DNA of 64,000 bases, from contig OZ024743.1 of the NCBI GenBank assembly GCA_964016885.1, forward strand, positions 352,098,001 to 352,162,000, written 5' to 3'. The translations under genes and the position numbers were made by a program. Of the stretch, positions 4,050-29,205 are shown piece by piece. The DNA is from Eledone cirrhosa. Taxonomy: Eukaryota. The notes beneath the pieces were generated by a model. The model made no database searches. It had not been told where the DNA came from and saw nothing but the letters and a program-made list of their open reading frames with translations. Position 1 is the stretch's first letter. Each line of letters begins with the position of its first letter.

Positions 4050-4904
4050 TTTCCAAATTGAAGGATGAGTATTTAAAACTTTATTTTATCATGAGTTAAG
4101 GCTCTATTGATTTTTCCCTGGATTTCACTAAATTCTGTTGGATGAATCTATATCCTGATTCTTTTTGAATTGAGTTTGAATTATTTTTCCCGCATCTTAC
4201 GTTAACTATTTTCCCATTTTGACGCTATAGTCACTTATATATTATGAAATACTGTGTGCTCCTTGCTCATAATAATTTCTATACTTTTCATTTATATTTA
4301 TACTCGGATTTCTTTCCTAGAGTGCTTAAATTATTTGTGACTAATCCTGGTCTTTTTTTTTAAAAACCGCGATAATATTGCTTTTTCTGAACTCCTTATT
4401 GTAGAGTTTTTTTCGGAATGTTTGTGACTGTTATTTCATGTAAACAAACATATGTCTCATTCTGACGTCACCAGCCCTGTCTCCACATGTGCGTTTTATT
4501 TTCATAATTACGCATGATGTTGAACTAGCCTGCTTTTAAATTCCCTTTCTGGCATATTATAATCAGTGAGATTTTGGTTATCGTGTTGAGCTCTGCTGAT
4601 GATCTAATCCAACCGTGACCATCACCACTGAAAGTTTCGTGAAATAGTCTTTTCAAGACTATACAGAGCATTTGTAGTTTTTCCAAATTGAAGGATGAAT
4701 ATTTTAAACTTTATTTTATCATGAGTTAAGGCTCTATTGATTTTTTCCCTGGATTTCACTAAATTCTGTTAGATGAATCTATATCCTGATTCTTTTTGAA
4801 TTGAGTTTGAATTAATTTTCCCACATCTTACGTTAACTATTTTCCCATTTTGACGCTATAGTCACTTATATATTATGAAATACTGTGTGCTTCTTGCTCA
4901 TAAT
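4050..4904. repeat. ~224-bp direct repeat pair (4050-4273 and 4680-4904)
   Basis: tttccaaattgaaggatga...cttgctcataat is present twice with few substitutions; the second copy abuts the PLE RT fragment. Confidence 0.9.
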
Positions 4905-5003
4905 GGAAAGAATTACATCCAAATTAGAGGCACAGCGATGGGAACGAAGTTTGCTCCCGTTTACGCGACCTCTGTAATGGGATACTTAGAACAACAACTC
5001 TAC
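4902..5003 (+). pseudogene. Penelope-like element RT, upstream piece (motif B'), interrupted by the rDNA cassette
   Basis: NGKNYIQIRGTAMGTKFAPVYATSVMGYLEQQLY fits the PLE Q..GTAMG...AP.YA motif; abrupt switch to GC-rich IGS at 5004. Confidence 0.88.
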
Positions 5004-8000
5004 CGAGAAAGTTCGCAACCCGCCGGCGAGGCGTATCCGCCGCCGCCGACCCGTAGGGTTGCGCAACGCCTGCGGGGAATACCACCGAGTAGGGATTTTG
5101 CAGCACGGCCAGGGGGTCCTGTCTATTATATAGGGTAGGCTTGATCGGACGAGCTCGAAGAAAACGATTCCGGGTGCTACCCGTCGAGAGTCGTGAATAT
5201 TCCGTTTTCAAGACGGGTACGTGCCGGCTTACCCTATGCTATGTCGGATGTCTCCGCCTCGACGACATGCCGTCTAGAACTCGTCCGCCCCGCCTGCACG
5301 TTAACGCCCGCTCTCCGCCTCCGCTCCGTATTCCGCCTCCGATGCGTGTTTCCGCCGTTAAGGCGTGCCAAGTTGGCCGCCTCCGACCCGTGTGGCTGCA
5401 GGGGAATCCAGCCGATGACGACGCCCGGACGGCGGCGTGGTGTTGCTTGGTCGATGCGACGACAACACGCCGCCAACTTGCCTCCTTCGGGGAGGCCCCG
5501 TGTAGACGGCGGAAAGAAATCCATTTCGCCGGCTAAGCGGTTCCGCCGCCGACCCGTACTTTTACGAGTAGCTGCCGGGAAAGACAGGCGGCAAGACGGC
5601 GTGTATACGCGAAGCGAGGCGAAGCTCCCCGACGCGACACGACGCCTTCCGTCTTCCGCCTCGAACCCGGCAAACGTTCCTTTATTCGTCCACGCCTTCA
5701 CGCTTCGATCGTGGAAAGAAATCCAATCCGCCGGCTAGGCGGTTCCGCTGCCGACCCGTACTTTTACGAGTAGCTGCCGGGAAAGACAGGCGGCAAGACG
5801 GCGTGTATACGCGAAGTTCCGCCACGCGACACGACGCCTTCCGTCTTCCGCCTCGAACCCGGCAAACGTTCCTTTATTCGTTCTCGCCTTGCCGCTTCGA
5901 TCGCGAGAAAGTTCGCAACCCGCCGGCGAGGCGTATCCGCCGCCGACCCGTAGGGTTGCGCAACGCCTGCGGGGAATACCACCGAGTAGGGATTTTGCAG
6001 CACGGCCAGGGGGTCCTGTCTATTATATAGGGTAGGCTTGATCGGACGAGCTCGAAGAAAACGATTCCGGGTGCTACCCGTGTGGCTGCAGGGGAATCCT
6101 CCCGATGACGACGCCCGGACGGCGGAAAGAAATCCATTCCGCCGGCTAGGCGTTTCCGCCGCCGACCCGTACTTTTACGAGTAGCTGCCGGGAAAGACAG
6201 GCGGCAAGACGGCGTGTATACCCGTCGCGAGGCGAAGTTCCGCGACGCGACACGACGCCTTCCGTCTTCCGCATCGAACCCGGCAAACGTTCCTTTATTC
6301 GTCCACGCCTTCCCGCTTCGATCGCGGAAAGAAATCCAATCCGCCGGCTAGGCGGTTCCGCTCCCGACCCGTACTTTTACGAGTAGCTGCCGGGAAAGAC
6401 AGGCGGCAAGACGGCGTGTATACGCGAAGTTCCGCGACGCGACACGACGCCTTCCGTCTTCCGCCTCGAACCCGGCAAACGTTCCTTTATTCGTTCACGC
6501 CTTCTCGCTTCGATCGCGAGGAAGTTCGCAACCCGCCGGCGAGGCGTATCCGCCGCCGACCCGTAGGGTTGCGCAACGCCTGCGGGGAATACCACCGAGT
6601 AGGGATTTTGCAGCACGGCCAGGGGGTCCTGTCTATTATATAGGGTAGGCTTGATCGGACGAGCTCGAAGAAAACGATTCCGGGTGCTACCCGTTGAGAG
6701 TCGTGAATATTCCGTTTTCAAGACGGTTACGTGCCGGCTTACTCTATGCTATGTCGGATGTCTCCGCCTCGACGACATGCCGTCTAGAACTCGTCCGCCC
6801 CGCCTGCACGTTAACGCCCGCTCTCCGCCTCCGATGCGTGTTTCCGCCGTTAAGGCGTGCCAAGTTGGCCGCCTCCGACCCGTGTGGCTGCAGGGGAATC
6901 TAGCCGATGACGACGCCCGGACGGCGGCGTGGTGTAGCTTGGTCGATGCGACGACAACACGCCGCCAACTTGCTTCCTTCGGGGAGGCCCCGTGTAGACG
7001 GCGGAAAGAAATCCATTCCGCCGGCTAGGCGGTTCCGCTGCCGACCCGTACTTTTACGAGTAGCTGCCGGGAAAGACAGGCGGCAAGACGGCGTGTATAC
7101 GCGAAGCGAGGCGAAGTTCCCCGACGCGACACGACGCCTTCCGTCTTCCACCTCGAACCCTGCAAACGTTCCTTTATTCGTTCACGCCTTCTCGTTTCGA
7201 TCGCCAGAAAGTTCGCAACCCGCCGGCGAGGCGTATCCGCCGCCGACCCGCAGGGTTGCGCAACGCCTGCGGGGAATACCACCGAGTAGGGATTTTGCAG
7301 CACGGCCAGGGGGTCCTGTCTATTATATAGGGTAGGCTTGATCGGACGAGCTCGAAGAAAACGATTCCGGGTGCTACCCGTTGAGAGTCGTGAATATTCC
7401 GTTTTCAAGACGGGTACGTGCCGGCTTACTCTATGCTATGTCGGATGTCTCCGCCTCGACGACATGCCGTCTAGAACTCGTCCGCCCCGCCTGCACGTTA
7501 ACGCCCGCTCTCCGCCTCCGATGCGTGTTTCCGCCGTTAAGGCGTGCCAAGTTGGCCGCCTCCGACCCGTGTGGCTGCAGGGGAATCCAGCCGATGACGA
7601 CGCCCGGACGGCGGCGTGGTGTAGCTTGGTCGATGCGACGACAACACGCCGCCAACTTGCTTCCTTCGGGGAGGCCCCGTGTAGACGGCTGAAAGAAATC
7701 CATTCCGCCGGCTAGGCGGTTCCGCCGCCGACCCGTACTTTTACGATTAGCTGCCGGGAAAGACAGGCGGCAAGACGGCGTGTATACGCGAAGCGAGGCG
7801 AAGCTCCCCGACGCGACACGACGCCTTCCGTCTTCCGCCTCGAACCCTGCAAACGTTCCTTTATTCGTTCACGCCTTCTCGTTTCGATCGCCAGAAAGTT
7901 CGCAACCCGCCGGCGAGGCGTATCCGCCGCCGACCCGTAGGGTTGCGCAACGCCTGCGGGGAATACCACCGAGTAGGGATTTTGCAGCACGGCCAGGGGG

Positions 8001-8803
8001 TCCTGTCTATTATATAGGGTAGGCTTGATCGGACGAGCTCGAAGAAAACGATTCCGGGTGCTACCCGTTGAGAGTCGTGAATATTCCGTTTTCAAGACGG
8101 GTACGTGCCGGCTTACCCTATGCTATGACGGATGTCTCCGCCTCGACGACATGCCGTCTAGAACTCGTCCGCCCCGCCTGCACGTTAACGCCCGCCCTCC
8201 GCCTCCGATGTGTGTTCCGCCTTTAAGGGGCGTGCCCAGTTGGCCGCCTCCGACCCGTATGGCTGCAGGGGAATCCAGCCGCCGATGATGACGCCCGAAC
8301 GGCAGCGTGGATAAGCTTGGTCGTCGTCGTCGACGCGACGACAACACGCCGCCAACTAGCTTCCTTCGGGGAGGCCCCGTGTAGACGGCGGAAAGTAATC
8401 GAATCCGCCGGCTAGGCGGTTCCGCCGCCGACCCGTACTTTTGCGAGTAGCTGCCGGGAAAGAGATGCGGCAAGACGGCGTGTACACGCGACACGACGCC
8501 TTCCGCCTTCCGCCTCGTACCCGGTAAACGTTCCGCCGTTGATGCGTGCCGAGTCGGCCGCGTCCGACCGGCGGTGGCTGCAGGGGAATCCAGCCGACGA
8601 CGACGCCCGAACGGCGAAGTGGTGTAGCTTCGCCGGCGACACGCCGCCTTCTATCTCTCTAGCCATTCTAGGTCCCGCATCGACAGCGGGACCGAAGCCA
8701 ACCCGCCGTCTAGGCGGTTCCGCAGCCGACTCGTGGCGGGCGGATCGCCCTTGGGGGATTTGCAACGATTCCGGAGGATGCAGCACGGCCAGGGGCTCCT
8801 GTC
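5004..8803 (+). repeat. rDNA IGS subrepeat array with duplicated spacer promoters (includes 687-bp repeats)
   Basis: GC-rich modular repeats. Motif cagcacggccagggggtcctgtcTATTATATAGGG has its TATT at 5124, 6021, 6634, 7321 and 8008; spacing 6634-7321-8008 is 687 bp. Confidence 0.9.
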
Positions 8804-8820
8804 TATTATATAGGGTAACC
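8780..8820 (+). promoter_or_regulatory. putative RNA Pol I gene promoter / transcription start of 45S pre-rRNA
   Basis: Last copy of the repeated TATTATATAGGG motif (8804-8815) before the sequence diverges into the unique 5'ETS; resembles TATATAGGG-type Pol I initiation sites. Confidence 0.65.
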
Positions 8821-10925
8821 TCGGTCGAACGAGCTTAGTGAACGGAAGGGTGTTAGCCGTTGCAGCTTTCGGTTTACTGCGTAGGTTACGGGTTAGGCGT
8901 GTTCGGATACCCTATATGCGATGTCGTCATCGTCCACGACCCGCCCTCACGTTACAGCCCGTACACGCCGCCATCGACGAATTATTGCCTTTACAGACCG
9001 CCGCCGTCCGACCGGACCCACGATAGAAGACGTTCGTTACCGCTGGAGCAACGCAAATTACTCCTAGGTTGACGCCAACAACGAGCGCCTTCCCGTCCGG
9101 GCGACGTAAAAGTTCTGAAAGCCTTTTTCGCCGAACCTCCTCGCGCCGCCTTTTCCTCGCCTATTCTTTTTTCTTTTTTCTCCTTTTCGACGGCTAGCCG
9201 CATTTCGTGACCCGCCTTTCGATTGCGCTTCCGTCGCGGCAAAAGAATTGCCTTTTCAGACCGCCGCCGCCGTCGCCCGACCGGACCCACGATAGAAAAC
9301 GTTCGTTACCGCCGGAGCAACGCAAATTACTCCTCGGTTGACGCAAAAAAACGAACGCCTTCCCGCCCGGTCGGCGTAAAATGTCTGAAAAACCTTTTCG
9401 CCGAACGCCTCGCCGCTTCCTCCTCGCCTCTTTTTTTTTTTTTTTTCGGTCGTTCGCTCGCTCGCTCGCCGACCCTCGGCCTCGACGATTATCCACCTTC
9501 CGAACGACCGCCTTTCCGCCGTCACAGCAGTAGGTACGCGTCCGTCGTAATAGCCGTCATTTTCATGTAGGAGCAACGCCTAAATGCCCTGCAATGCGTT
9601 TGACGACGATCTACGACGGCGACGACGCGCGTCACTCTTCCTTGCTGCGACGAAGACGCTCGTTACCGCTGGAGCAACGCAAATTACTCCTAGGTTGACG
9701 CCAAAAAACGAACGCCTTCCCGCCCGGTCGGCGTAAAATGTCTGAAAAACCTTTTCGCCGAACGCCTCGCCGCTTCCTCCTCGCCACTTTTTTTTTTTTC
9801 GTTCGTTCGCTCGCTCGCCGACCCTCGGCCTCGACGATTATCCGCCTTCCGAACAACCGCCTTTCCGTCACAGCAGTAGGTACGCGTCCGTCGTAATAGC
9901 CGTCATTTTCATGTAGGAGCAACGCCTAAATGCCCTGCAATGCGTTTGACGACGATCTACGACGGCGACGACGCGCGTCACTCTTCCTTGCTGCGACGAA
10001 GGTTTTCGTTCGGCTTTTCGTCGTGGACCCGGTCAGGTCATGCCGCTGACCTCGCGTTGCGTCGCCACTGCTGCGGCGGGCTTGGGTATAGCCGTAGCTA
10101 CCCTCGTTTTGCCAACGGCGACGCGATATCTATGAAAGAAAGCGGCGTCGTCCCTCCCGAAGGGACACTGGCATCAAGTCCGGGTGTCCCTGCTTGCGCC
10201 GCTGCCTTTTATCGGGTCAGCGTCGTCCAAGTTTGCCCCGGCATACCTAGCCGTTAGGTTACGCGACGGCGGCGCTTTTCGCGTCGTCGTCGTCGTCTTC
10301 CTAACTCTCTTCCGTTGACCGCATTCCGCCGCCATGTCGAACCGATTTCTTTTTTCGTCGCAGTAACGGCGACAGCAGCTGTTGAATCGAAAGCGGAGGG
10401 CGCCGCCGCCGCCTACTTGTCTCTCTCCTCTTCTTCGAGGCCGCATGCTGCTGCCGCCCCGGCATCACGCCTCAGCTCGCACTTACGCCCAGGGAAACGC
10501 TTCCGAAAGCGGCTTCGTGCGATGCCATAGGATTGTAAACCGTCTTGCGAGCTCGTTTTCGTTTGTTTCTTTTCTTTTCTTTCATCGCCGCCGCCGAGGA
10601 GGAGGAAGAAGACTAAACGATTGGCCGGCAGTCGGCGGGCGATTTGTTTTCGTATACGCCCGTTTTTTGTCGACGACGTCGCTGGGAGAGGAGATGATCT
10701 GATTAGATTAGTAAATGTCGCCAAACGCGCAGCGCCGCGTCCTTCTTCTTTTCTCTTCGTTTCTTACCTCCACCGGCTCGTGGACCGGTTGCCGACATTT
10801 CCGTATTTTTTTTTTTTTTTGTTACGTTTTCTCATTCCGCCTACAAACGAGACGAGACGAAATTCGCTGCTGCCGCCTCCATGCGCTTCTGTTCTCGGTC
10901 GTCGTTTTGTATTTCGTGCGGAAGA
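8811..10925 (+). other. 5' external transcribed spacer (contains a 346-bp duplication in this copy)
   Basis: Lies between the putative start site and 18S; the 5' boundary is inferred. Confidence 0.65.
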
Positions 10926-12798
10926 TACCTGGTTGATCCTGCCAGTAGTCATATGCTTGTCTCAAAGCTTAAGCCATGCAAGTGTAAGTTCATGCCGTAA
11001 ACGAATGGTGAAACCGCGAATGGCTCAGAAACCGGACCTAATCCTCGGGACCGTATTCCTCACCGCGAGGAGAGTGGATAACTGTGGCAATTCTAGAGCT
11101 AATACATGCAACTGAGGCCGCGATCGCAGGTCGCACCCGGGAGTCGGGTTACAAACGCGCTCAGCGTTCCATCGCTGTCGTCGTTCCGTCTTCCCGCGCG
11201 GTCCCAACAGATCGCGTCGACACGGTCGGCCTTTGCATTGGTCGCGGCGCAAATATTAGACTGAGACCGACGACGCGTTAGATGCCGTCAGCGCCGTTCG
11301 CAGTTCGCTGCGTGCCGGTTGCGCGGTGTCGCGCATCAATTCGACTTTGGTGACTCTGGATAACTGTCAGTACGATCGCACGGGCTTAGAATCGCTTCTG
11401 GCCTTCGCGCGACGGGTCCCCCGCGAGTCCGCCCTATCAACTGTCGACGGCCCGGTAAGTGCCGACCGTGGTGGCAACGGGTAACGGGGAATCAGGGTTC
11501 GATTCCGGAGAGGGAGCATGCGAAACGGCTACCACATCCAAGGAAGGCAGCAGGCGCGCAAATTACCCACTCCCGGCACGGGGAGGTAGTGACGAAAAAT
11601 AACGACGCGGGACTCTGTCGAGGCCCCGCGATCGGAATGAGTACACTTCAAATCCGTTAACGAGGATCGACCGGAGGGCAAGTCTGGTGCCAGCAGCCGC
11701 GGTAATTCCAGCTCCGGTAGCGTATATTAAAATTGTTGCGTTTGAAAAGCTCGTAGTCGGAATTCGGGTCTCGAAAGCGCGCTGCGTCGTCAGCGCGTTC
11801 GGGGCGACGGCGCCGTTGTCGTTCGCGCGCCGCGCGTCGACTTCGGTCGTCCGTTCGCACTCCCGGCCCTATTCGCCGGTGCGTGCGCGGTCGGGCCGCA
11901 GAGCTCTGCGTGCATCGCCGCTCGGCGTCACGGTGCGGACGTCGCGTTTTTACCTTCTTGCCACGCTTCTTGCCGTTCTTCTTGCCTATTTTCCTTTCCG
12001 CGTTCGGGGACGATGCGACGACGGCGCTTTTGCTTTATCGCGGGCGTTTGCCGTTCGCCTCTCGTTTTCGTTGCGGCGCTCCGGTCAGGGTTTGGAGTGT
12101 CGTCTCGCTTGGCTATTCGGTCGGTTCTTACGTCGTCGTGCCGTCACCTCGCCGCGGTCGCGCGTTCACCTCGCGGTTTTGTTTTTCTCTCCCTGCGCGT
12201 TTGCCTTTTTCTTTTCGAAAGGAGAGGTTCGTCGTCGCCAGGGTTGGATACGACGGCGTGATCGGTTTCGTCGTCGCGTCGTCTCGGCGCGTCGCTTTCC
12301 TGCGGCCGCCGTTTTGTCGTCGCGCGCGTCGTTCCGTTTCGCCGCCGATCCGCACGGTTCCTCCGAGGGTGCTCTTTACCGAGTGTCCGAGGCGGCCGGT
12401 ACGTTCACTGTGAAAAAATTAGAGTGCTCAGAGCGAGCCGCACCGGCTTGCATACGAAAAGCATGGAATGATGGAAAATGGCCTCGTCCGCGCGTCATCC
12501 GTCGGTCTCCGTTCACGACGAGGCAATGATCGAAGGGAGCGATCGGGGCCACTCGTATTGCGACGTTAGAGGTGAAATTCTTGGATCGTCGCAAGACGCA
12601 CTGCAGCGACGGCGTGTGGCAAGCACGTTTTCCTCGATCAAGAGCGAAAGTCGGAGGTTCGAAGACGATCAGATACCGTCGTAGTTCCGACCGTAAACGA
12701 TGCCGACTGGCGCTCCGCCGGCGTTCGCTTCGATGACCCGGCGGGGAGCCTGCGCGGGAAACTATAGTCGGTTCCGGGGGGAGTATGGTTGCAAAACA

Positions 12799-12844
<46 letters not shown>

Positions 12845-13553
12845 GCGGCTTAATTTGACTCAACACGGGAAAACTCACCCGGTCCGGACACCGGTAGGAT
12901 TGACAGATCGATAGCTCTTTCTCGATTCGGTGGGTGGTGGTGCATGGCCGTTCTTAGTTGGTAGAGCGATCCGTCTGGTTGATTTCGATAACGAACGAGA
13001 CTCCGGCCTGCTAACTAGCGCGTCGATTAGTGCTTTTCCGGTAGCATGGCGGCGCCGAAGCCGTCGTCGGTAAGCTGTCCTGCGTTCGTTTTTTTTCCCT
13101 TTTTCTTCGAGCTCGGGCTTCCGTTGCCGTTGCCGTCGTCGTCGCGTCGTCGTCGTCTTCTTCTTTCGCGAGTTCGCTTGCGGAATGGAGGAATGAAGGC
13201 AGCGCTGGCGGAGGCGGCGGTCGGTTTTTCGGGCTCGGGAGGGGGGGACCGGCGCGATCAGCCCCGGCGTCGGCACGTCGTCGCGTCCGGGCCAGTCGGT
13301 TGGCGAACGCAGCGCTTCTTAGAGGGACGGGCGGCAGAAAGCCGCACGAGGCGGAGCGATAACAGGTCTGTGATGCCCTTAGATGTCCGGAGCCGCACGC
13401 GCGCTACACTGGAGGTATCAGCGGGCGCCACTCCCCCGGCCCGAGAGGGTCGGGAAACCTCTGAACCACCTCCCGTGATAGGGATCGGGGCCTGGAACCA
13501 ACCCCGTGAACGAGGAATTCCCGGTAGGCGCGGGTCATCAGCCCGCGTCGATC

Positions 13554-13596
<43 letters not shown>

Positions 13597-13739
13597 CGAA
13601 CGGTCCGGTGAGGTCCTCGGATCTGGCCGACGAGTTCGCAGGCCGTGCGGCGGCGTTTCGATTCGGCCGTCAGGTCGGTTCGTTGCCGTCGTCGGTGCGC
13701 TCTCTGATGGCCCGGAGAAGACGACCGAACCCGATCGCT

Positions 13740-13797
<58 letters not shown>
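10926..13797 (+). rRNA. 18S rRNA: 18S rRNA (2872 nt, large V2/V4/V7 expansions)
   Basis: Starts tacctggttgatcctgccag; contains gtgccagcagccgcggtaa and aaacttaaaggaattgacgg; ends gtaggtgaacctgcggaaggatcatta. Confidence 0.98.
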
Positions 13798-14328
13798 CCG
13801 CGTATATTATCGTTTATTGCCGACGCTGCCGCCAAACGAAAGCCGCCTTATTTTCGTTATTCGATGATCACAACAACGGTCGGGTTCGTCATCTGAAGAC
13901 GCCTAGCAGACGGCGTAACCCGTTAAATGGAGCGAGCGCCGTTTTGCGAAATCGCCGCCAATATCGCTTACTGCGCGTCTACAGCCGCCTAAACCGCTCC
14001 TACCGTTATTTTTTTTTCTTTTGCCGGCGCCAGCACGGCGCTCGGCTGATAACATTTGCGCATCGTTCGATTTCGTATCCGAAAGAACGTATTTTTTCGA
14101 CGTGCCCTTCTTATTTTTCTCCTCCTCTCACCTCGCCCGCGGAAGCAGCAAAGCAGCCAGCAGCAGACAAACCGCAGCGAGCAGCGAACGTGAAAACCTC
14201 CCGTGAATAACGTCGCTGTCGCCGCCGCCGCCGTCCTCCGCCATCGTCTACCGTTGGTTGTTTCTATGCTTTCGCGTTCATTTTACCGTGTTTTTTTTTT
14301 TCGTTTTCGTTTTCGTTTAAAATTGACA
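13798..14328 (+). other. ITS1
   Basis: Between the 18S 3' end and the 5.8S 5' end. Confidence 0.85.
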
Positions 14329-14490
14329 AAACCCTGGACGGGGGATCACTCGGCTCGTCCGTCGATGAAGAGCGCGGCTATCCGCGTGAACTGATGCGAA
14401 TTGCAGGACTCAGTGAACATCGACACCTCGAACGCACATTGCGGCCCCGGGATTCCACCGTCCCGGGGCCCCGTCCGGTCGAGAGGCGGT
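14329..14490 (+). rRNA. 5.8S rRNA: 5.8S rRNA
   Basis: ggatcactcggctcgtccgtcgatgaaga...gcgaattgcagga...gaacgcacattgcggcccc; ends approximate. Confidence 0.95.
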
Positions 14491-15022
14491 CACGATACAA
14501 TCGCGATGTCTGCTGTTTCGCCATGCGCCGCCCGCTCACGAGAGTGAGAGATGAAAGAGAGAAACACATCCGCCTTTTGCGCTGCTGCCGCTGCCCGCCT
14601 TAGCGAAGCGCAGTTTCTTTTCTTTTTCTCTTCTCTTTTGCGCCATGGTAACAGCGGGAAGTCGGGAGTCGCAGAAGAAGCGAGAGTCGTCGCTCGCGGA
14701 ACGCTCCGCTTCGGAGATCGTCGCACGGAAAGAGAAAGATTTAGAAGAAGGGAAGACGAGAAGGGTAAAAAGAAACGCAGTAACACAGGCGCGGTCGTTG
14801 TTCGTCGGCCGGCGTTCGCTCTGCGAGTCGCCAAAAACACAAAGCGTTCGTGTCGGCCGACGAGAAACGATTTCGATGCCGCTTCTTTTTTTCCCATTTC
14901 TCTCGTCTTTTCCACATTCCGCCTTGGCGCCCGCTCTATATCGCCAACCTCTTCTTTATCAATGCCGCCTTCTTCTTACCGTCCTCGTTCTTCGTATTCA
15001 GCGTATTCGGCGTATGCGAATA
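14491..15022 (+). other. ITS2
   Basis: Between 5.8S and 28S; 64 bp shorter than in copy 2. Confidence 0.85.
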
Positions 15023-16517
15023 GCTGCCCTCGACTCGGACGCGACTACCCGCCGAACTTAAGCATATCGCTAAGCGGAGGAAAAGAAACCAACCGGGATT
15101 CCCTTAGTAACGGCGAGTGAACTGGGAGGAGCCCAACGCTGAATCTCGTCGTCCGCAAGCAGGCCGTCGAGAGCTGTGGCGCAAGGGTCGTACACGGTCG
15201 TTCGTTTCGCCCGGCTAGGTTCGGAGTCCCCTCGATCGGGGCTGCCCAAAGCGGATGCCAGGCCCATTCGGAGCCGGCGGCGGTCGACAGTGTCTCTTTC
15301 TTCGGCCCGAGAGTCGGGTTGCTTGGGAACGCAGCCCAAAGCGGGTGGTAAGCTCCATCCAAGGCTAAATACCGGGACGAGTCCGATAGCCGACAAGTAC
15401 CGCGAGGGAAAGTTGAAAAGAACTTTGGAGAGAGAGTTCAAGAGACCGTGAAACCGCCCAGGGGTTAAACGGGTAGGACCGTTCACCGCGATCGCGAGGG
15501 GACTCAGTCCGCTGCTGTTTTAAGGCGCCGTCGTCGTCGGCGGCGGTCTCTCGTTTCGACGAGTCGACCGCCGACCGCCTCGCCGGCGTTACGATTCGCA
15601 GGGTGCCGGCATCGGACGCACTTCCCCTTCGATCCCTCGTCGCGACCCGTTCCCGTCAGGCTGGATGGCGCGCGGTGTCCGCAGGTCGCAGAGCGGCGTC
15701 CCGCCTAGAAAACGAACCATTCCCGGTTCGCTTTCGAAGCGGGTTTCCGAAAACAGCGCTTCTCTCGACCGGGCCCGTCGCTCGGCGGTGGTTTTCATCG
15801 TCCCAGGCACGGCTAACAGGCGGGGACGGGACAAACGCGCGTGTTCCTTTATTAGCCGCAGCGCCGTTCGTATATGCTTAGGTTGGTTTTTTTAAATATC
15901 CTTTAAAATTTCTGATCGGCTTTCGAGAAAGCGGCCGCCTCGTTCGCTCGCCCCGTTTGCTTTTTCTCTTTTGCTCTCTTTGCGGAGCAGGAGGGAGCGG
16001 GTCGCTGGGCGGACGAGGATCGCGAGCCGTCCGCTGCTGCAGGTCTGCGACGAGCATCGGCAACCTACCCGACCCGTCTTGAAACACGGACCGAGGAGTC
16101 CCAGTCGGTTGCGAGTCGTTGGAGCGAAAGAAATCGAATTTAACGAACTCCGACGGCGAAGTGAAAGCGAGAACGTGACGCGTCGTCGACGGCGGCGTTA
16201 GAGGCTGGTTTGAATTGACGGCATGCGGCATGGCCTTCGGGTCGTGTCGCTGTTGTTTTTTTCTTCTTTTTTCCGCGCCGTCGTAGGCGTTTCGAAGCAT
16301 CGTTCCCGGGTCGGGTGTGCGCGTCGCGTGGCGGCTTTCGGGCCGTCGGCGCGGCGCGCTCCGACTCAGGTGTAGCAGGCGGCCGGGGACCCGAAAGATG
16401 GCGATCCACGCCCGGTCGGGACGAAGCCAGAGGAAACTCTGGTGGAAGTCCGAAGCGCCTCTGACGTGCAAATCGATCGTCGGAACCGGGTGTAGGGGCG
16501 AAAGACCAATCGAGCCG

Positions 16518-16560
<43 letters not shown>

Positions 16561-18582
16561 CGCCAGCAGCAGACAGAACGACACGCAATTCCGTCCGGTA
16601 AAGCGAACGACTGGAGGCCCCGGGGACGTTGACGGCCTCGATCTACTCTCGAACTCGGAACGGGCGAAACGGGCCGCTCTCTCTCCCGATCGGAGGCGGC
16701 CGCCGTCTCGGCGACGAATGCACGGTGCCAAGTGGGCCACTTTTGGTAAGCAGAACTGGTGATGTGGGATGAACCGAACGTCCGGCTAAGGTGCCCTACG
16801 CTTCGCCCATTAGATCCCCGAAAGGGTGTCGGTCGATATAGACAGCAGGACGGTGGCCACGGAAGTCGGAATCCGCTCAGGAGTGTGTAACAACTTACCT
16901 GCCGAATCGACCGGCCCCGAAAATGGATGGCGCTGGAGCGAGCGACCGATGCCGGACCGGCCAGGCGATAGGCGAAAAAAGGTAACACGACGTAACTTTC
17001 TTCGATGCCTGGTCGAGTAGGAGGGCGCCGCGGCGTGCACGGAAGCCGCGGGCGTGAGCCGGGGTGAAGCCGACCGCGGGTGCAGATCTCGGTGGTAGTA
17101 GCAAATATTCGAACGAGACCTTCGAAGACCGAAGTGGAGAAGGGTTCCGTGCCAACGGCGGTCGAGCACGGGTCAGTCGGTCCTAAGAAGCGGGCGAAAG
17201 CTTGTACGAAAGGCGCCGGATCCGTTGTCGAGAAAGAGGAAAAAAAAAGAAAAAAACCCCTTTTTTTTTTTTGGCTTCTCTGTTTTTGTTACGGCCGGCC
17301 TTGCATCGAAAGGGAATCGGGTTAATATTCCCGAACCCGTACTCGGAGAGTGCTCGTCCGTCGGTGGAATTTAACGCGTCGTCGCGTCATCGAAGCCGGC
17401 GGTCGGGCGAAGCAGCGGCAACGCAAGCGAGCCCGGAGACGTTGCCGGGAGCCCTGGGAAGAGTTCTCTCTTCTTCGTAAAGGACCGCGTCCGTGGAATC
17501 GGCTCGTCCGGAGATACGGATATGGTACCTGTAGAGCGCCGCGTCTCGGGCGGCGTCCGGTGCGCTCTCGGCGGCCCTGGAAAATCCGGGTCCGTAACGA
17601 TTCGCAGCTCTCGAGTCGGTCCGTACCCACCATCCGCAGCAGGTCTCCAAGGTGTACAGCCTCTCGTCGATAGCGCCAATGTAGGTAAGAGAAGTCGGCA
17701 AAATGGATCCGTACCTTCGGAAGAAGGATTGGCTCCGAGGACCGGGTCGGTCGGGCCGTGTGTGTGTCGGCCTGTCGGCCGTCTTGTTGTTTTTTTCCAA
17801 AAACTCGGGATCGGTCGCGCGGCACGTCTGTACGCGAAGCGGTGAACCGGTACGGGGCTGTAGCGTTGGCGTCGGACTTGACGTTCGAGCGTCGGTCGGG
17901 TGGTCGATTTGCGCCCGTTTCGTTTGCGTTCGTTTCGTTTTTCCTTGCCCTTCTTTCGGTTGGCGGCGAGGAGAGAGAGGAAGAAGGCGGCGGCGGCGGC
18001 TGCGGGTTGGTCGCGCGGAGGCGGACGGGGTTTGTTGAAAGATTACCGCGGAGGAGGGATGAAGGCGTAGCAGTAGACGGGGGGAGAGGCTTGTCGCTCG
18101 CAAGGGCGGTTTGTTTTTTTTTTCGTTTTTCTGCTCGCTTTTGTTTTGTTCTTTCGGTTTTTTTTTCTCTTTCCTTTACTGTTCGTCGCAGTGCCGGCGG
18201 CTCGCGCGTCGTCGTCGTCTTTTTTTCTTCGTTTTCTTCGTTTTTGTCGGTCGGAAACAAAAACGGGGGGCTTGGAGAGGCGCTAGCTTGGCGTTGGCGA
18301 GCGGCGTTTCGGTCGGTTGCTTTTTGCGACGTTCGATGCGTAGTGGGCGCGAACAACACGGCTCCACGCCCGGGACACCGTGGAGCGACACGGTTTCGGG
18401 CTCGTTGGCGCGTCGGTTAGCTTCCTTTCTTTCTTGTTCGCGAGGAGGAGGGCGGTTGCCGAGACGCGCGGCAGGCGTTCGGCCGGCGGCGAACGGTCAA
18501 CTCGAAACTGGTACGGACCGGGGGAATCCGACTGTCTAATTAAAACAGAGCATCGCGTAGCCGGCCGAGCCGCATAGACGCG

Positions 18583-18614
<32 letters not shown>

Positions 18615-18630
18615 AGTGAAGAAATTCAAC

Positions 18631-18660
<30 letters not shown>

Positions 18661-18669
<9 letters not shown>

Positions 18670-18882
18670 GTCGGCGCTACCCTTGACGTGGGAAGAGAGC
18701 TTAAATCCGTGGTTAGAGCTGTACGAGTGAGTCAACTTGACGCGTACCTTTGGAAGTTTGACTCCTTTCGGAGGTTGGCGCCCTCTTCGAGGGGTCGGTT
18801 CCGGGGTGCGGGTTCGGGTTGGCTCGGCAGGTTTTACCATACTCGGTTGGTCTGCCACATTAAGGATGAACTAATTGGCGCC
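18661..18882 (+). ncRNA. HDV-like self-cleaving ribozyme fold spanning the 28S/insert 5' junction
   Basis: P1 ctctctt(18663-69)/aagagag(18693-99); P2 ggcgcta(18673-79)/tggcgcc(18876-82); P3 ccc(18680-82)/ggg(18690-92); 7-nt L3 ttgacgt; P4 base atcc/ggat plus gtgg/ccac; J4/2 aCtaat. Folded by eye. Confidence 0.75.
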
Positions 18883-19828
18883 TAAATTATGATTGTAATA
18901 ATTATATAAAAATCATATATCCGTACGGTAGCTGGGGGCCGTTTTAAAACCAGTAACCGAGGGGTCGGGATGGGCCCCTTAGGTTTACTAACTGCAGCGG
19001 GCCGCTGTGGTGGCTCCATGATCATTACAGCGAACGTGATGGGATGTGGAGTCGCCGTGGTGGCTTGCTGTGGTACTTAACCACCCTCGAGGGCTGACAG
19101 GGAGCCGGGATACGCCCTCTGGATTAGAGCCGGCTCAAACCTTTTTTTTTTTTTTTTTTTTTGTCCTTGTTTTTTTTTGTGTGGGCGCGGAAGTGCCTGG
19201 AAACTCTCTTCCTAGTTTTTTTTTTTTATTAACTCGGTGAGCGGTCGGATATAATATCCGAGAAGGAAAAGTAAGACGTCTCCGCCGTTCCGCTAGTCTG
19301 GTGGTTCGCCTTGGGAAAGCGATAGAACCACCTTATCCCCCCGTTGCAGGGTTACGCGTTGCTTAAAGGAAAGTGCTTTTTTTTATTATTAACAGTTTCG
19401 TTAATAATATTTTAGGAATAGGAAGGGAGTGATGAAATGGCTTCTGGAGCGCCCCACAACTTTTTTTATTTTTTTTTTATAGAGTACAATGTACGGCCAG
19501 GGAGTTTGGAGCCTCCCTGTGCGGGATTCCGGCAACAGGATCTCCGCGCGGGGTTCGGTTCCGGTTGCTTACTTGGTGCGTACAACCAAGTAAGCAACCG
19601 GGAGGGCTTAGTGTCTCGCATGGCTCGCTCGCTGAGGTGGCTCCCAGCCAGCCCCCGCGGGGTCCATGGCTTGGCCTGCTCTCTTGGCGTGACCAACCAA
19701 ATTTGACAGGGCACGCCGTTCATGCCATAGTTTGCTTGATGACGTTGGCCCGTGGGACCACCCACTTTAAAAAAAAGGGAAAGGCGGCTTATACTTTGCA
19801 AAAAGTATAAGTTAATAGCCAGCTAAAA
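18670..19828 (+). mobile_element. 1159-bp ORF-less insertion at the R2 target site (putative non-autonomous R2 derivative, SIDE-like)
   Basis: Canonical 28S gactctcttAAGGtagccaaatg reads gactctctt[insert ending gctaaaa]tatccaaatg here. The 3' junction is at the R2 first-strand nick, AAGG is lost, there is no TSD and no RT ORF, and the 5' end folds as an HDV-like ribozyme. Confidence 0.88.
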
Positions 19829-19831
19829 TAT

Positions 19832-19868
<37 letters not shown>

Positions 19869-19903
19869 CGGATCAACGAGATTCCCACTGTCCCTATCTA
19901 CTG

Positions 19904-19938
<35 letters not shown>

Positions 19939-19944
19939 CGGATC

Positions 19945-19985
<41 letters not shown>

Positions 19986-20555
19986 TTTTGTGAGGGCACA
20001 CGGTAGGCGTAGCATAGGCGGGAGCAATCTTGCGTCTCTCGGCTGGCGGCAGCGTCGTTTGCGGGTCGCTTGCGGCTTTGCGGCGGCGTTCGCCGTCTGT
20101 CGGGTACCGTGCGCGTTTGCGTCGATGAAAAACCGCCACTTCCGTAGTTTCTTCGCTCACTCGATTGAGAAGGGACGGGGCCGTCGCCGAGCGGTGGTTC
20201 ATTTATCTGGTGCGAAGCGTGCGGTGCATGTCGCGCGCGCACACGTTGTGCGCCGACGCAGCCGATGCGCGACCCTTAGTCGAGAACAGTGTCGGTCGGG
20301 GAGTTTGACTGGGGCGGTACGTCTGTCAAAGGGTAACGCAGGTGTCCCAAGGCGAGCTCAGCGTGGACGGAAACCACACGTTGAGCAAAAGGGCAAAAGC
20401 TCGCTCGATCTCGATTTTCAGTACGAATACGGACCGCGAAAGCGTGGCCCATCGATCCTTTCCGAATAGCGGCGAGCTATGCGTCCGCCGAGAGGTGTCA
20501 GAAAAGTTACCACAGGATAACTGGCTTGTGGCGGCCAAGCGTTCGCAGCGACGTC

Positions 20556-20593
<38 letters not shown>

Positions 20594-21682
20594 CGAAGCA
20601 GAATTCGCAAAGCGTTGGATTGTTCACCCACTAACAGGGAACGTGAGCTGGGTTTAGACTGTCGTGAGACAGGTTAGTTTTATCCTACCGATGCATTGCG
20701 TGTAGGCGGCGGCGGTGGCGGCTGCAGCCACCTTCTCGAAGGCGGCTGCGGTCGGCGTCGCCGCCGGCAACGTCAACTCGGCTACGGCTATCCCGTCCAG
20801 TACGAGAGGAACCGCGGGATCAGAGCAACGGTTTGCGCGCTCGCTCGATAGAGCGGTGGTGCCAGGCTGCCTCTGAGCGATAACGGCTGAACGCCTCTAA
20901 GCCGGAACCGTAGCCGGACCCGAGTTGTTTTTCGAAAGCGTCTCAACCTTCTTAAGGCGCATGCCTTAGTTTGGCGATTGCCGTCCGTTCGGCGAAGTCG
21001 CTTCCCTTTTCGGGGTGCGCGTCGTCGTCGGCGGCAGCGTCAGCGGAATTGCCATTCTGTGACGATTACGACGATTCGTCGTCGTTGTCGTCCGTTCGAT
21101 TTGTCGAAAGAGATCGAGACGAAAAGGATCGCTTGTATACGACTCGACTTGCCGTTCGGAGTGACGTGCTTAGTAGAGCAGCTACCACACTGCGATCTAT
21201 TGAGTCTCTTCTCACGAACGACACGATCCGCCCACCGAGGCGGCAGACACCAAAAAAAAAAAAAGAAATTTGAAAAGCGGCTAAGGAAGGAAGGAACGAA
21301 CGAACGAGAGATAGCAGCAGCAGCAGCAGCAGCTAGCGGGTTGGAGCAATGACTCGGTTTTCTTTCGACGGGTTAGCGTAGCAACAATGACGACGACAAC
21401 ATACAAACAAGTCCGCTCCTTAGCCGCCGCCAATTGTTAGGTTCGTTCTTTATTACACTTCCACCGCTGCTACTGCAAACCACCAACCACTTTCCGCGCG
21501 CCAACTTTTACGACGATTTCGCTCGCTCGCTCGCCGCTCGTTTGCCAGGTTGCGCCAACGACCCTCAAGGTCGATTAGCATCGAAAATAGAGAGAGTTCG
21601 CGGTGAATGCGACACAGCCTTGGTTCGAGTGCCGCCGATCCGTCTTCCGAGTTGGTTATTTTTGCGTGTGTTACACGTAGCC

Positions 21683-22150
21683 GCCGCCCATCCGTCGTCC
21701 GAGTTGGTTAGTTATGTTTGACGTGTAGCAGGCGGATTCTGTTTTGTGTGTGTGTCTGTGTGTGATACAAGCCGCCCATCCGTCGTCCGAGTTGGTTAGT
21801 TATGTTTGACGTGTAGCAGGCGGCGGATTCTGTTTTGTGTGTGTGTCTGTGTGTGATACAAGCCGCCCATCCGTCGTCCGAGTTGGTTAGTTATGTTTGA
21901 CGTGTAGCAGGCGGCGGATTCTGTTTTGTGTGTGTGTCTGTGTGTGATACAAGCCGCCCATCCGTCGTCCGAGTTGGTTAGTTATGTTTGACGTGTAGCA
22001 GGCGGATTCTGTTTTGTGTGTGTGTCTGTGTGTGATACAAGCCGCCCGTCTTCCAAGTTATGTTTTAAGTGTAGCCGATGGTGTGTGTGTCTGTGTGTGA
22101 TACAAGCCGCACATCCGTCGTCCGTCTTCCAAGTTATGTTTTACGTGTAG
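21683..22150 (+). repeat. 88-91-bp tandem repeats downstream of 28S (candidate Pol I terminator / fork-barrier array)
   Basis: Units gccgcccatccgtcgtccgagttggttag...gtgtgtgatacaa start at 21683, 21771, 21862 and 21953, then degenerate from 22041. Function inferred from position only. Confidence 0.85.
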
Positions 22151-24411
22151 CTGGCGGAAAGAAATCCAATCCGCCGGCTAGGCGGTTCCGCCTCCGACCC
22201 GTACATTTACGAGTAGCTGCCGGGAAAGACAGACGGCAAGACGGCGGCGTGTATACGCGAAGTTCCCGACGCGACACGACGCCTTCCGTCTTCCGCCTCG
22301 AACCCGGCAAACGTTCCTTTATTCGTTCACGCCTACCCGCTTTGATCGCGGAAAGAAATCCATTCCGCCGGCTAGGCGGTTCCGCCGCCGACCCGTACAT
22401 TTACGAGTAGCTGCCGGGAAAGACAGACGGCAAGACGGCGGCGTGTATACGCGACGCGAGGCGAAGTTACAAGACGCGACACGACGCCTCCGTCTTCCGC
22501 CTAGAACCCGGCAAACGTTCCTTTATTCGTCCACGCCTTCCCGCTTCGATCGCGAGAAAGTAATCAATCCGCCGTCGAGGCGGTTCCGCCGCCGACCCGT
22601 AAGCTTACGGGTCGGCAGCGGGGAATACGACCGTCCAGGGCCTTTGCAGCACGGCCAGGGGGTCCTGTCTATTATATAGGGTAAGCTTGATCGGACGAGC
22701 TCGAAGAAAACGATTCCGGGTGCTACCCGTTGAGAGTCGTGAATATTCCGTTTTCAAGACGGGTACGTGCCGGCTTGCACTATGCTATGTCGGATGTCTC
22801 CGCCTCGACGACATGCCGTCTAGAACTCGTCCGCCCCGCCTGCACGTTAACGGCCGCCCTCCACCTCCGCTCCGTCTTCCGCCTCCGATGCGTGTTCCGC
22901 CGTTAATGCGTGCCCAGTTGGCCGCCTCCGACCCGTGTGGCTGCAGGGGAATCGAGCCGATGTCGACGCCCGGACGGCGGCGTGTTGTAGCTTGGTCGAC
23001 GCGACGACAACACGCCGCCAACTTGCTTCCTTCGGGGAGGCCCCGTGTAGACGGCGGAAAGAAATCCATTCCGCCGGCTAGGCGGTTCCGCCGCCGACCC
23101 GTACTTTTACGAGTAGCTGCCGGGAAAGACAGGCGGCAAGACGGCGTGTACACGCGACACGAAGCCTTCCGCCTCGTACCCGGTAAACGTTCCGCCGTTG
23201 ATGCGTGCCGAGTCAGCCGCGTCCGACCCGTGGTGGCTGCAGGGGAATCCAGACGAACGGCGAAGTGGTGTAGCTTCGCCGACGACACGCCGCCTTCTAT
23301 CTCTCTAGCCATTCTAGGTCCCGCATCGACAGCGGGACCGAAGCCAACCCGCCGACTAGGCGGTTCCGCAGCCGACCCGTGGCCGGCGGATCATCCTTGG
23401 GGGATTTGCAACGATTCCGGAGGATGCAGCACGGCCAGGGGGTCCTGTCTATTATAGAGGGTAAGCTTGATCGGACGAGCTCGAAGAAAACGATTCCGGG
23501 TGCTACCCGTTGAGAGTCGTGAATATTCCGTTTTCAAGACGGGTACGTGCCAGCTTACCCTATGCTATGTCGGATGTCTCCGCCTCGAACGACATGCCGT
23601 CCAGAACTCGTCCGCCCCGCCTGCACGTTAACGCCCGCGCTCCGCCTTCCCCCAGCGATGCGTGTTCCACCGTTAAGGCTTGCCCAGTTGGCCGCCTCCG
23701 ACCCGTGTGGCTGCAGGGGAATCCAGCCGATGACGACGCCCGGACGGCGGCGTGTTGTGACTTGGTCGACGCGACGACAACACGCTGCCAGCTAGCTTCC
23801 TTCGGGGAGGCCCCGTGTAGACGGCGGAAAGAAATCTATTCCGCCGGCCAGGCGGTTCCGCCGCCGACCCGTACATTTACGAGTAGCTGCCGGGAAAGAC
23901 AGACGGCAAGACGGCGTGTATACGCGAAGCGAGGCGAAGTTCCCCGACGCGACACGACGCCCTCCGTCTTCCGCCTCCGACCCGGCAAACGTTACTTCAT
24001 TTGTCCACGCCTTCCCGCTTCGATCGCGGAAAGAAATCCATTCCGCCGGCTAGGCGGTTCCGCCGCCGACCCGTACTTTTACGAGTAGCTGCCGGGAAAG
24101 ACAGGCGGCAAGACGGCGTGTATACGCGAAGCGAAGCGAAGTTCCCCGACGCGACAGGACGCCTTCCGTCTTCCGCCTCGAACCCGGCAAACGTTCCTTT
24201 ATTCGTTCACGCCTTCCCGCTTCGATCGCGGAAACAAAACCATTCCGCCGGCTAGGCGGTTCCGCCGCCGACCCGTACTTTTACGAGTAGCTGCCGGGAA
24301 AGACAGGCGGCAAGACGGCGTGTATACGCGAAGTTCCGCCACGCGACAGGATCCATTCCGTCTTCCGCCTCGAACCCGGCAAACGTTCCTTTATTCGTTC
24401 TCGCCTTGCCG
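22151..24411 (+). repeat. rDNA IGS subrepeats with two spacer promoters (22670; variant TATTATAGAGGG at 23450)
   Basis: Same modules as 5004-8803; ends abruptly at ...tcgccttgccg 24411. Confidence 0.9.
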
Positions 24412-25435
24412 AGTACTGACTTTAGAAAGTACATTGAAAAATCTTGGAAGAGATACCTTGACGACTGTTTCATCATCTGGACAGAATCTCTAGATACTCT
24501 GGATGAGTTCAATATCCTCCTGAATAACCTAGACTCATCTCTCCAATTCACAAAAGAGATGAGTAGGACCAAATTACCATTCCTAGATATAATGATAATC
24601 AAAAACGACACCACCATTACCACGGATATATATTATAAACACACAGACACCCATCAATATCTGAATTTTATGTCGTGCCATCCACCTCATACAAAACGCA
24701 ACATCCCATACTGCCTAGCCAGAAGAATTTGTACCATTGTAGAAGATACGAATACCAAGTACAAACGCCTAACAGAACTAAGAGAATTTTTGCTCAAACA
24801 AAAATACCCATCTCTACTTATAGAAAATGGCATACAGCGGGCTATAAAAATACCTATACAACAACTTAGAACAACCCAAGGAAGAAGAAACCAAGAACTG
24901 GTCAGACCATTTATAATGACACACAACCCATGTCACCAGAATATATTCAACACTGCCAAAGCAAACCTACCGATCATTGCTCAAAGTAATGAATTAAAAG
25001 GCTTAATCACAGATCGATCTTTGACTCTTAGTAAAAGACAGAGAAAAAATTTGAAGCAATGATAATCGATGCGGCACATGTCAATCCAAACAGGCCGGTC
25101 AATATATGAAAACAAAAACTGGAAAAATATTCCCAAATGCAATTATGAACTGCAAAAGCAGAAATCTAATTTACTGCATTAAATGCCCGAATTGTGAAGA
25201 ACTATATGTCGGTCAAACTGGAAATGCACTATCGGAACGTGCACGGGTACACCGTCAACAAATCAGAGACCCAAATGTCCGTCAGATACCCCTAAGCGGC
25301 CACCTGGCAACATGTGGTCAGGGAATATTTATAATATTCCCATTCTACAAATTACACAGCCCAAGTGAAATCAAGAGAAAAATCAAAGAAAATAATTTTA
25401 TTGATAAATTCAAACCCAAGCTAAATGAACAATAA
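24412..25435 (+). pseudogene. Penelope-like element RT (YLDD motif, thumb) plus GIY-YIG endonuclease, downstream piece, with an internal break near 25060
   Basis: WKRYLDDCFIIW, LPFLDI, IYYKHTDTHQYLNFMSCHP, KRQRKNLK; then RCGTC...NCKSRNLIYCIKCPNCEELYVGQTG...RARVHR (GIY-YIG with Cys linker, Neptune-like). Confidence 0.93.
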
Positions 25436-25770
25436 TAACGCCTAGGGATATTATTTCTACTACCACTATGACCACGACCACTAACAACAACCACAACAAC
25501 AATAATAATAATAATAAAAGTGATGTTGATGGTGATGATTAATAGAAAATGCTATTTTCATCATTTCAAAAAGCAAAACAATTGATACGTTGGGTATGAC
25601 TATTGGTCGTTAGCATGCTCAACCAGCCGTGACGCTTAAACCAATCAGCTGTAGTAATTCAGTGAAACTACACACTGATTGGTCGAAATACAGTTTACAG
25701 GGCTTTGCATTCCGGGGCCACTTTTCTCTGTATAAAATGTATAAAAGGTAGTAAATTTACCCATCTCATT

Positions 25771-26020
25771 ACAGTTGAAAATTGCAAACTCGACTGTCAC
25801 CACATATCATGAACCTGAAGATTGCGAAAGCATGAAAGTACTTGTTCAATTAACACTTAGAATTTAATATTCTATCATACTATTTCATTATAATACCATA
25901 TTATATTATATATATTTTAAAGGATTGTAAATAAAACGAGTAAATCAGACAAAGTTGGAATTCCTCTTATTAATATAATCTTCTATACACAATCATACAC
26001 ACCCGTGTATATTTACCTAT
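25771..26020. repeat. ~240-bp dispersed repeat, second copy at ~28966-29205
   Basis: acagttgaaa.ttgcaaact.gactgtcaccaca...aatcatacacacccgtgtatattta occurs on both sides of the RTE element. Confidence 0.8.
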
Positions 26021-28447: not shown

Positions 28448-28880
<433 letters not shown>

Positions 28881-29205
28881 CAACCAGTAAGACCCCGACG
28901 GCTGAGCTCAAGCCGTTTCGACGGCTAATTCATAATTGTGGTGACAGTCAAGTTTGCAATTTTCAACAGTTGAAAGTTGCAAACTTGACTGTCACCACAC
29001 ATTATGAACCTGAAAATTGCGAAAGCATGGAAGTACTTGTTCAATTAACACTTAACATTTAATATTCTACCATACTATTTCATTCTAATACCATTATAAA
29101 TTTTAAAGGATTGTAAATAAAACGAGTAAATCAGACGAAGTTGGAATTCCTTTTATTAATATAATCTTCTATACTCAATCATACACACCCGTGTATATTT
29201 ATCTA

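What the first reader, a model, noticed from the sequence alone, without database searches (positions are those of the whole stretch)
4902..25435. A complete 45S rDNA unit lies inside a Penelope-like RT gene
Seen: ...GTAMGTKFAPVYATSVMGYLEQQLY stops at 5003, 19.4 kb of rDNA follows (5004-24411), and STDFRKYIEKSWKRYLDDCFIIW resumes at 24412 on the same strand. Known: these are consecutive RT motifs (B' then C) of Penelope-like elements. Both junctions carry ccgag (5003-07, 24409-13). Joining on it does not restore the frame, and a few codons appear to be missing, so microhomology-mediated integration with a small deletion is more likely than a TSD. This reverses the usual relationship (TE into rDNA) and records an rDNA relocation event.
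Basis: partly seen in the sequence, partly recalled or inferred. Interest (0 to 1): 0.8.

Follow-up and report, generated by a model that had tools for sequence, protein, structure and literature searches.

The report
Whole rDNA unit inside retrotransposon, duplicated
One complete ribosomal-RNA gene unit splits a broken retrotransposon gene in this likely octopus genome, and its two ends meet at one point of the ribosomal spacer, which likely records a DNA circle patched into a chromosome break; the whole 40-kb block is present twice in tandem, a rare base-level trace of how ribosomal genes likely move.

Summary
A full 18S-5.8S-28S unit (5004-24411) splits one Penelope-like RT. Intact family members in related octopods show that both halves come from one element. 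14 bases of it are lost, and up to 7 bases at the left junction are shared with the rDNA spacer. The rDNA ends are in register within a spacer subrepeat, 9 bases apart: a circularly permuted single unit. First, the whole block recurs 39-40 kb downstream, 0.17% diverged, with identical junctions. This makes 'rDNA into the element' and '20.7 kb of genomic DNA into the rDNA spacer' equivalent inside the window. Second, both 28S genes carry a 1.16-kb insert at the R2 site and lack one G in conserved domain V, so the unit is probably dead. Best reading (0.5): an rDNA circle integrated by end joining into an already truncated element, then was duplicated with its flanks. Reads of the window's own species were not available, so junction support and copy number are untested. 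The scan noted the R2-site insert and other defective rDNA arrays elsewhere in this genome, but not this arrangement.

The parts
4902..5010 (+). 5' piece of a Penelope-like RT, 5'-truncated at 4902; 5004-5010 is shared with the rDNA spacer (microhomology)
5004..10925 (+). IGS subrepeats and 5' ETS of rDNA unit 1, starting inside a subrepeat
10926..13797 (+). 18S rRNA gene, 2872 nt, model positions 1-1831
14330..14488 (+). 5.8S rRNA gene
15025..21231 (+). 28S rRNA gene, interrupted
18670..19828 (+). 1.16-kb insert at the R2 target site of 28S (also at about 57809-58966)
20515..20516 (+). one G missing from a conserved GGG in 28S domain V, in both units (also 59653-59654)
21232..24411 (+). 3' ETS and IGS subrepeats of unit 1, ending 9 bases short of register with 5004
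24412..25435 (+). 3' piece of the same Penelope-like ORF: RT core and thumb, internal deletion with frameshift near 25056-25060, Cys linker, GIY-YIG
24412..45112 (.). 20.7-kb AT-rich (35% GC) segment of retroelement remnants and microsatellites; it begins with the 3' piece and ends with the 5' piece of the element
40107..45112 (+). second copy of window 1-5003, ending in the 5' RT piece
45113..63649 (+). rDNA unit 2 (18S 50002-52873, 5.8S 53405-53563, 28S 54164-60369), same ends as unit 1
63650..64000 (+). second copy of the 3' RT piece, 0 substitutions in 351 bases

Best explanation
A complete, circularly permuted rDNA unit splits one truncated Penelope-like element, likely because a unit-length rDNA circle was joined into a chromosome break, and the 40-kb block is present twice, likely by later tandem duplication. 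Shown in the sequence: the element's two ends lie 14 bases apart, the rDNA's two ends lie 9 bases apart in subrepeat register, up to 7 bases are shared at the left junction, and both copies have identical junctions and identical 28S lesions. Inferred steps: (1) recombination between spacer subrepeats of neighbouring units looped out one unit that already carried the R2-site insert; (2) the circle broke in the spacer and was joined to a break in the dead element by microhomology-mediated end joining; (3) the orphan unit was then duplicated with 20.7 kb of flank, making a composite repeat whose new spacer is captured genomic DNA. The element's own enzymes probably played no part, and the unit probably makes no working 28S rRNA.
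For: Both junctions are reciprocal, for the element and for the spacer (an internal copy at 5873-5922 shows the two ends with 9 bases between). The spacing across the split, 1091 bases, equals the 687-base long subrepeat plus two 202-base units. The insert is exactly one unit. All 4 of 4 spacer ends in the window abut the element, and no ordinary spacer-to-spacer join is seen. A 7-base match has a rough chance of 2e-4 at a random junction. Terminal microhomology is enriched in human circle-type insertions, 23 of 82 against 10 of 245. Lesions shared by both units predate the duplication and fit an orphan unit. R2-inserted units are seldom duplicated inside Drosophila arrays, and the model there includes loop deletion of units. 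The element copy differs from family contigs by 3 of 306 and 0 of 190 bases in X4, and by 4 of 407, 4 of 190 and 8 of 311 in X5; the two units differ by 38 of 22,555. This fits the order insertion, then duplication.
Against: The window cannot show direction: the array ends and the duplication breakpoint are not seen. No run from the window's own species was found (best share 0.46; the spacer alleles differ), so read support and copy number are untested. rDNA is itself known to take up foreign DNA. An earlier, unchecked note says the R2-site insert is widespread in this genome's rDNA, which weakens it as a sign of an orphan. Decay is slight: the other rRNA cores examined look intact. The missing G could be a lineage trait or a consensus error. 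The bases at 5004-5010 in the relatives' contigs were not printed, so 7 is an upper bound. Scores of the left and right pieces across 117 proteins did not correlate (rho 0.13, p 0.17); the same-family claim rests on the DNA contigs.
Confidence: 0.5

Rival explanations
1. Reverse direction. A 20.7-kb circle of ordinary genomic DNA opened inside its Penelope-like element and was captured at a break in an rDNA spacer. Unequal crossing-over in the array then copied the enlarged unit.
For: It gives the same sequence. It explains the tandem copy by routine array dynamics, and the units differ in subrepeat number as array units do. rDNA arrays take up extraneous DNA in yeasts. A homogeneous spacer full of dead elements exists in Hepialus humuli.
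Against: It needs a 20.7-kb genomic circle, whereas rDNA circles form routinely. No ordinary unit is present in 64 kb. Inserted units are seldom duplicated in Drosophila arrays.
Confidence: 0.22
2. No circle. A break in the element and a break in an rDNA spacer exchanged ends as a reciprocal translocation. Ectopic recombination between the two rDNA-bearing products then left a short rDNA tract inside the element, which collapsed to one unit.
For: It gives the same reciprocal junctions. Break exchange is the first of the two hypotheses in PMC3622299.
Against: It needs more steps, and a translocation heterozygote that persists long enough to resolve.
Confidence: 0.13
3. The insertion is real but single. 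The second copy is a false duplication, with two haplotypes or mis-joined contigs laid in tandem, perhaps across the long TA tracts at 28460-30174.
For: Divergence of 0.17% could be allelic. Long TA tracts lie between the copies. No reads of this species were available.
Against: There is no gap in the window. The copies differ by several whole subrepeats. The join would need reads linking the downstream flank to the upstream flank.
Confidence: 0.12
4. The junctions themselves are assembly chimeras.
For: None of the listed pieces from related organisms bridges a junction (24 shown and 32; 30,110 and 18,571 not shown).
Against: Those runs are not the window's species. An assembler would not produce two reciprocal joins that lose 14 and 9 bases on the two partners, nor repeat them exactly.
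Confidence: 0.03

Closest known systems
Circle-mediated germline insertions with AB-to-BA order: tilapia vasa 28 kb and cattle KIT 492 kb (as summarised in bioRxiv 10.1101/2022.06.22.497135, abstract and section 5 read); 82 human cases (bioRxiv 10.64898/2026.09.03.749254, passages)
   Same: Circularly permuted insert, terminal microhomology, small losses.
   Different: Here the cargo is a whole 45S unit and the target is a datable retroelement, and the block is duplicated. Because the source is a tandem array, permutation alone does not prove a circle.
Proposed rDNA mobility by circle reintegration or break exchange (Proux-Wera et al. 2013, PMC3622299; parts 2 and 3 of 4 read)
   Same: This is the kind of product both hypotheses predict.
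   Different: That paper found no sequence features at sites of gain or loss and stated that there was no experimental evidence for reintegration at new sites. It expected a multimer to seed a new array; here one unit was repeated together with its flank.
Hepialus humuli rDNA with a long spacer holding fragments of eight elements (PMC10257491, passages)
   Same: About 40-kb repeat with a conserved spacer of dead elements.
   Different: It was read as separate insertions into the spacer of the main array. Here the element-rich part is one block with a single entry and exit point, and the unit looks non-functional.
Elements in rDNA and rDNA fragments in elements (review PMC10946416; abstract, passages and section 11 read)
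   Same: Physical nesting of rDNA and transposable elements.
   Different: Table 2 of that review lists only fragments inside elements (5S promoters, a 28S piece, spacer repeats), co-opted by the element. It lists no whole 45S unit.
Tomato rDNA-derived satellite (PMC2679016, abstract and outline only)
   Same: Amplification of a retroelement-interrupted, defective rDNA unit by recombination.
   Different: There the element entered the 18S gene and the array decayed to spacer subrepeats.
R2-inserted units and non-autonomous R2 derivatives (PMC3542110, passages; PMC3414825, search listing only)
   Same: Insert at the R2 site; such units are described as making no functional rRNA.
   Different: The nature of this 1.16-kb insert was not tested here beyond its position.

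Membership tests
Endonuclease-bearing Penelope-like element (features from PMC8557442) | Penelope-type RT followed by a C-terminal GIY-YIG endonuclease in one ORF | tested here: met
   colinear with RT + GIY-YIG proteins at 50-65% identity; the ORF is broken by the insertion and one frameshift
Endonuclease-bearing Penelope-like element | Cys-rich linker (Neptune/Nematis type) and CCHH motif | tested here: inconclusive
   CxxC before the nuclease and CxxC, H, H within it are visible; the first linker Cys falls in a deletion; no tree was built, so no clade is assigned
Endonuclease-bearing Penelope-like element | Pseudo-LTR with hammerhead ribozyme | tested here: inconclusive
   A core-like motif lies at 25815, but there is no Rfam hit and the fold is no better than shuffles, z +1.46
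Single element split in two | Both halves continuous in intact family members | tested here: met
   loose ends: X4 (1 contig), X7 (21 contigs), and X6 (4 contigs, a more distant subfamily); record 12
Complete 45S rDNA unit | 18S, 5.8S and 28S full length, in order, with spacers | tested here: met
   full model coverage in both units
Functional rRNA gene | Uninterrupted 28S with intact conserved domain V | tested here: not met
   1157 inserted positions at the R2 site; one G missing in both units; no octopus reference was available to exclude a lineage trait
Functional rRNA gene | Transcribed; forms a nucleolus | not testable with these tools
   no RNA run of this species was available to lay
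Circle-mediated insertion | Insert is a cyclic permutation of its source | tested here: met
   ends in register, 9 bases lost
Circle-mediated insertion | Direction fixed by a unique source locus and an empty target site | not testable with these tools
   no genome held; relatives gave repeat-family contigs, not an orthologous site
Transposition with target-site duplication | Target duplicated with no loss; element ends or enzyme on the insert | tested here: not met
   14 target bases are absent; the insert ends lie inside a spacer subrepeat
Non-autonomous R2 derivative | Sits at the R2 site of 28S | tested here: met
Non-autonomous R2 derivative | 5' ribozyme and 3' end homologous to a full-length R2 | not tested
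   Rfam gave no R2 or ribozyme hit at E up to 1; no parent element was compared

The most novel reading that the evidence does not exclude
This is a new rDNA array caught at birth. One relocated unit was amplified together with its landing site, so a 20-kb spacer full of dead transposons arose in a single step, and the composite is now a sizeable array in this species. The same route could explain long element-filled spacers in other animals.
Probability: 0.2. Interest if true: 0.8.

Novelty: new variant of a known kind. Interest (0 to 1): 0.56.

Why it matters
How rDNA moves to new sites is an open question: PMC10257491 says none of the proposed mechanisms has been studied in detail. Movement is usually seen only by FISH or synteny, after the junctions have eroded. 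Here both junctions are resolved to the base inside a young element whose intact sequence is known, which gives losses, microhomology and order of events. It also offers a testable origin for long transposon-filled spacers: flank capture rather than serial insertion. The limits are that it is one event, its direction is unproven, and the unit is probably dead.

Tried and rejected
No whole genome was held, so copy number and array ends could not be examined. A run search found no holder of half the words and no RNA holder listed. Six runs were laid (X1, X4, X5, X17; X1, X4, X6, X7). At five spacer positions where relatives' contigs differ, the window's own subrepeats carry the window allele in 5 of 5, 8 of 8, 6 of 6, 5 of 5 and 5 of 6 copies, so these runs are outgroups and their lack of junction contigs is no test. 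Contig depths of the element and the spacer were similar in some runs, but the tool states that depth is not copy number, so I did not use this. Two metagenome scans for cephalopod-type rDNA found nothing. Rfam at E up to 5 over the AT-rich segment gave 96 matches, none reaching its gathering score, almost all on microsatellites. A hammerhead at 25815 was not supported. 'ccgag' as a plain target-site duplication was rejected. It may still trace a 3-base microhomology plus a slip at the right junction; the net losses are the same. Substitution density in rRNA genes (13 of 9237) was not lower than in the AT-rich flank (4 of 5003), but the counts are too small to test selection. I could not locate the duplication breakpoint. 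Ten literature searches listed no report of a whole 45S unit inside an element or of octopus rDNA structure. The library lacks most subscription papers, and supplements were not read. Look-ups of earlier findings near this place or by sequence found nothing like this arrangement.

Full report
Observation. The RT piece ends at 5003. Full-length 18S, 5.8S and 28S genes follow. The RT resumes in an open frame at 24412 and ends in a GIY-YIG domain at 25435. GC steps from about 32% to 62% at 5004 and falls again after 24411. The host is probably an octopod. This is inferred from the 2.9-kb 18S, the AT-rich microsatellite-laden flanks and a recurrent SINE (recalled traits), and from earlier notes on this genome; it was not tested.

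One element, split. A protein search gave 202 relatives, 120 listed, with RT and GIY-YIG domains. Of 109 with both RT motifs, 102 space them by 46 residues; the window's two pieces sum to 39. P0002, P0003 and P0004 are the top three matches for the right piece and the nuclease, and three of the top four for the left piece. Over all 117 proteins, however, the left and right scores did not correlate (rho 0.13). DNA settles it. In one search, contigs of organism B (X4, 1 contig) and D (X7, 21 contigs) align through 5010, then show 14 further bases, then the sequence that starts at 24412; organism C (X6, 4 contigs) shows a related subfamily doing the same from 5009. In one search an X4 contig matches 24412-24717 with 3 differences and leaves the window exactly at 24412. 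Seven shared plus 14 lost bases make the 7 codons. The same contigs show that the copy is 5'-truncated at 4902. It also has an internal deletion near 25056-25060, so it is a dead, passive target.

The rDNA ends. The last 22 bases of the insert and the first 19 occur together at 5873-5922, with 9 bases between them. Spacer contigs of relatives also continue as spacer before 5004. The spacing of the repeated promoter-like motif across the split is 1091 bases, equal to 687 plus two 202-base units. The insert is therefore one unit, cyclically permuted, opened in the spacer with 9 bases lost. The left junction shares up to 7 bases (rough chance 2e-4). The right junction is blunt by simple accounting; the recurring 'ccgag' allows a reading with a 3-base microhomology and a slip. 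Either fits end joining (inference). Two reciprocal joins of this kind are not what misassembly produces.

What was missed: the repeat. Window 1-7791 recurs at 40107-47913, and 21590-24762 at 60828-64000. Both junctions are identical in the second copy. The period is 40,109 bases between left junctions and 39,238 between right junctions, because subrepeat numbers differ. There are 38 substitutions in 22,555 aligned bases; 7001-8499 and 21232-21589 were left out, and four of the 38 cluster at the ITS1 start and may be alignment noise. The repeat unit is thus 19 kb of rDNA plus a 20.7-kb AT-rich segment that starts and ends in the same element and holds RT, RNase H and integrase remnants and microsatellites. 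In a tandem array, 'rDNA inside the element' and 'genomic segment inside the spacer' are the same sequence. Only the array ends or an empty site can give the direction.

What was missed: the unit looks dead. Both 28S genes carry about 1.16 kb there. Both lack one G of a conserved GGG in domain V and share two C-to-T changes nearby. That this G lies in the peptidyl-transferase centre is recalled knowledge. The other cores examined align well, so decay is slight. R2-inserted units are described as making no functional rRNA and as seldom duplicated within Drosophila arrays (PMC3542110, passages). I had no working octopus rRNA to compare, so a lineage trait or a consensus error is not excluded.

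Mechanism. Most likely (0.5), subrepeat recombination looped out one R2-marked unit, the circle was joined into a break in the dead element, and the block was then duplicated with its flanks. The element copy is 0-2.6% from family contigs per piece and the units are 0.17% apart, which fits that order. Rivals are capture of a genomic circle by the spacer (0.22), break exchange resolved by ectopic recombination without a circle (0.13), a false second copy (0.12) and chimeric junctions (0.03). The available runs are not the window's species, so the absence of bridging contigs among the rows shown says nothing about read support.

Comparison and novelty. Circle-type insertions are known for other loci. 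Circle reintegration and break exchange were proposed for rDNA, with no sequence traces found at the sites (PMC3622299). A review lists only rDNA fragments inside elements (PMC10946416). H. humuli has a long spacer of dead elements, read as serial insertions (PMC10257491). Tomato has an amplified, element-interrupted rDNA derivative (PMC2679016, abstract). My ten searches listed no whole 45S unit inside an element; coverage is limited to open-licence papers, and supplements were not read. From memory, interstitial nucleolar-organiser insertions are known in human cytogenetics, so ectopic rDNA as such is not new. Verdict: a real, well-resolved new variant of a known kind of event, with direction and copy number open. 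Interest 0.56.

Noticed in passing
window 18670-19828 and about 57809-58966: 1.16-kb insert at the R2 site of both 28S genes, with a few target bases lost at the 5' side; unit 1 also has a G-to-T change at 19831 in the 3' target.
   Followed up: partly
window 5123, 6020, 6633, 7320, 8007, 8803, 22669, 23449: A TATA-G-rich motif resembling a Pol I start site (recalled likeness) occurs 8 times in unit 1 and 7 times in unit 2; the copy at 8803 runs into unique ETS, and the others look like spacer promoters.
   Followed up: partly
window 10926-13797 and 15025-21231: Very long expansion segments: 18S of 2872 nt, and about 5 kb of 28S without the insert.
   Followed up: no
window 28929-29263: A second, 86% identical copy of the element's 3' tail (25771-26067) with a short inverted piece, between two long TA tracts (28460-28879, 29222-30174).
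   Followed up: partly
window 2151-3122 and 42257-43228: About 970-base element with 221-base terminal inverted repeats at 99% identity; MITE-like or fold-back.
   Followed up: no
window 4053-4277 and 4681-4905: 225-base direct duplication (97%) in a multi-copy repeat, ending at the element's 5' truncation point.
   Followed up: partly
window 26664-28440, 31217-33904 (-), 34713-35129 (-), 37834-38860 (-): Broken retroelement remnants: an RT with a PHD-like finger, a second RT on the minus strand, a possible RT scrap with no Pfam hit, and an LTR-type RNase H plus integrase piece.
   Followed up: partly
window 21683-22047 and 60736-61285: 91-base tandem repeat just after the 28S 3' end, a candidate terminator region; copy number differs between the units.
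   Followed up: no
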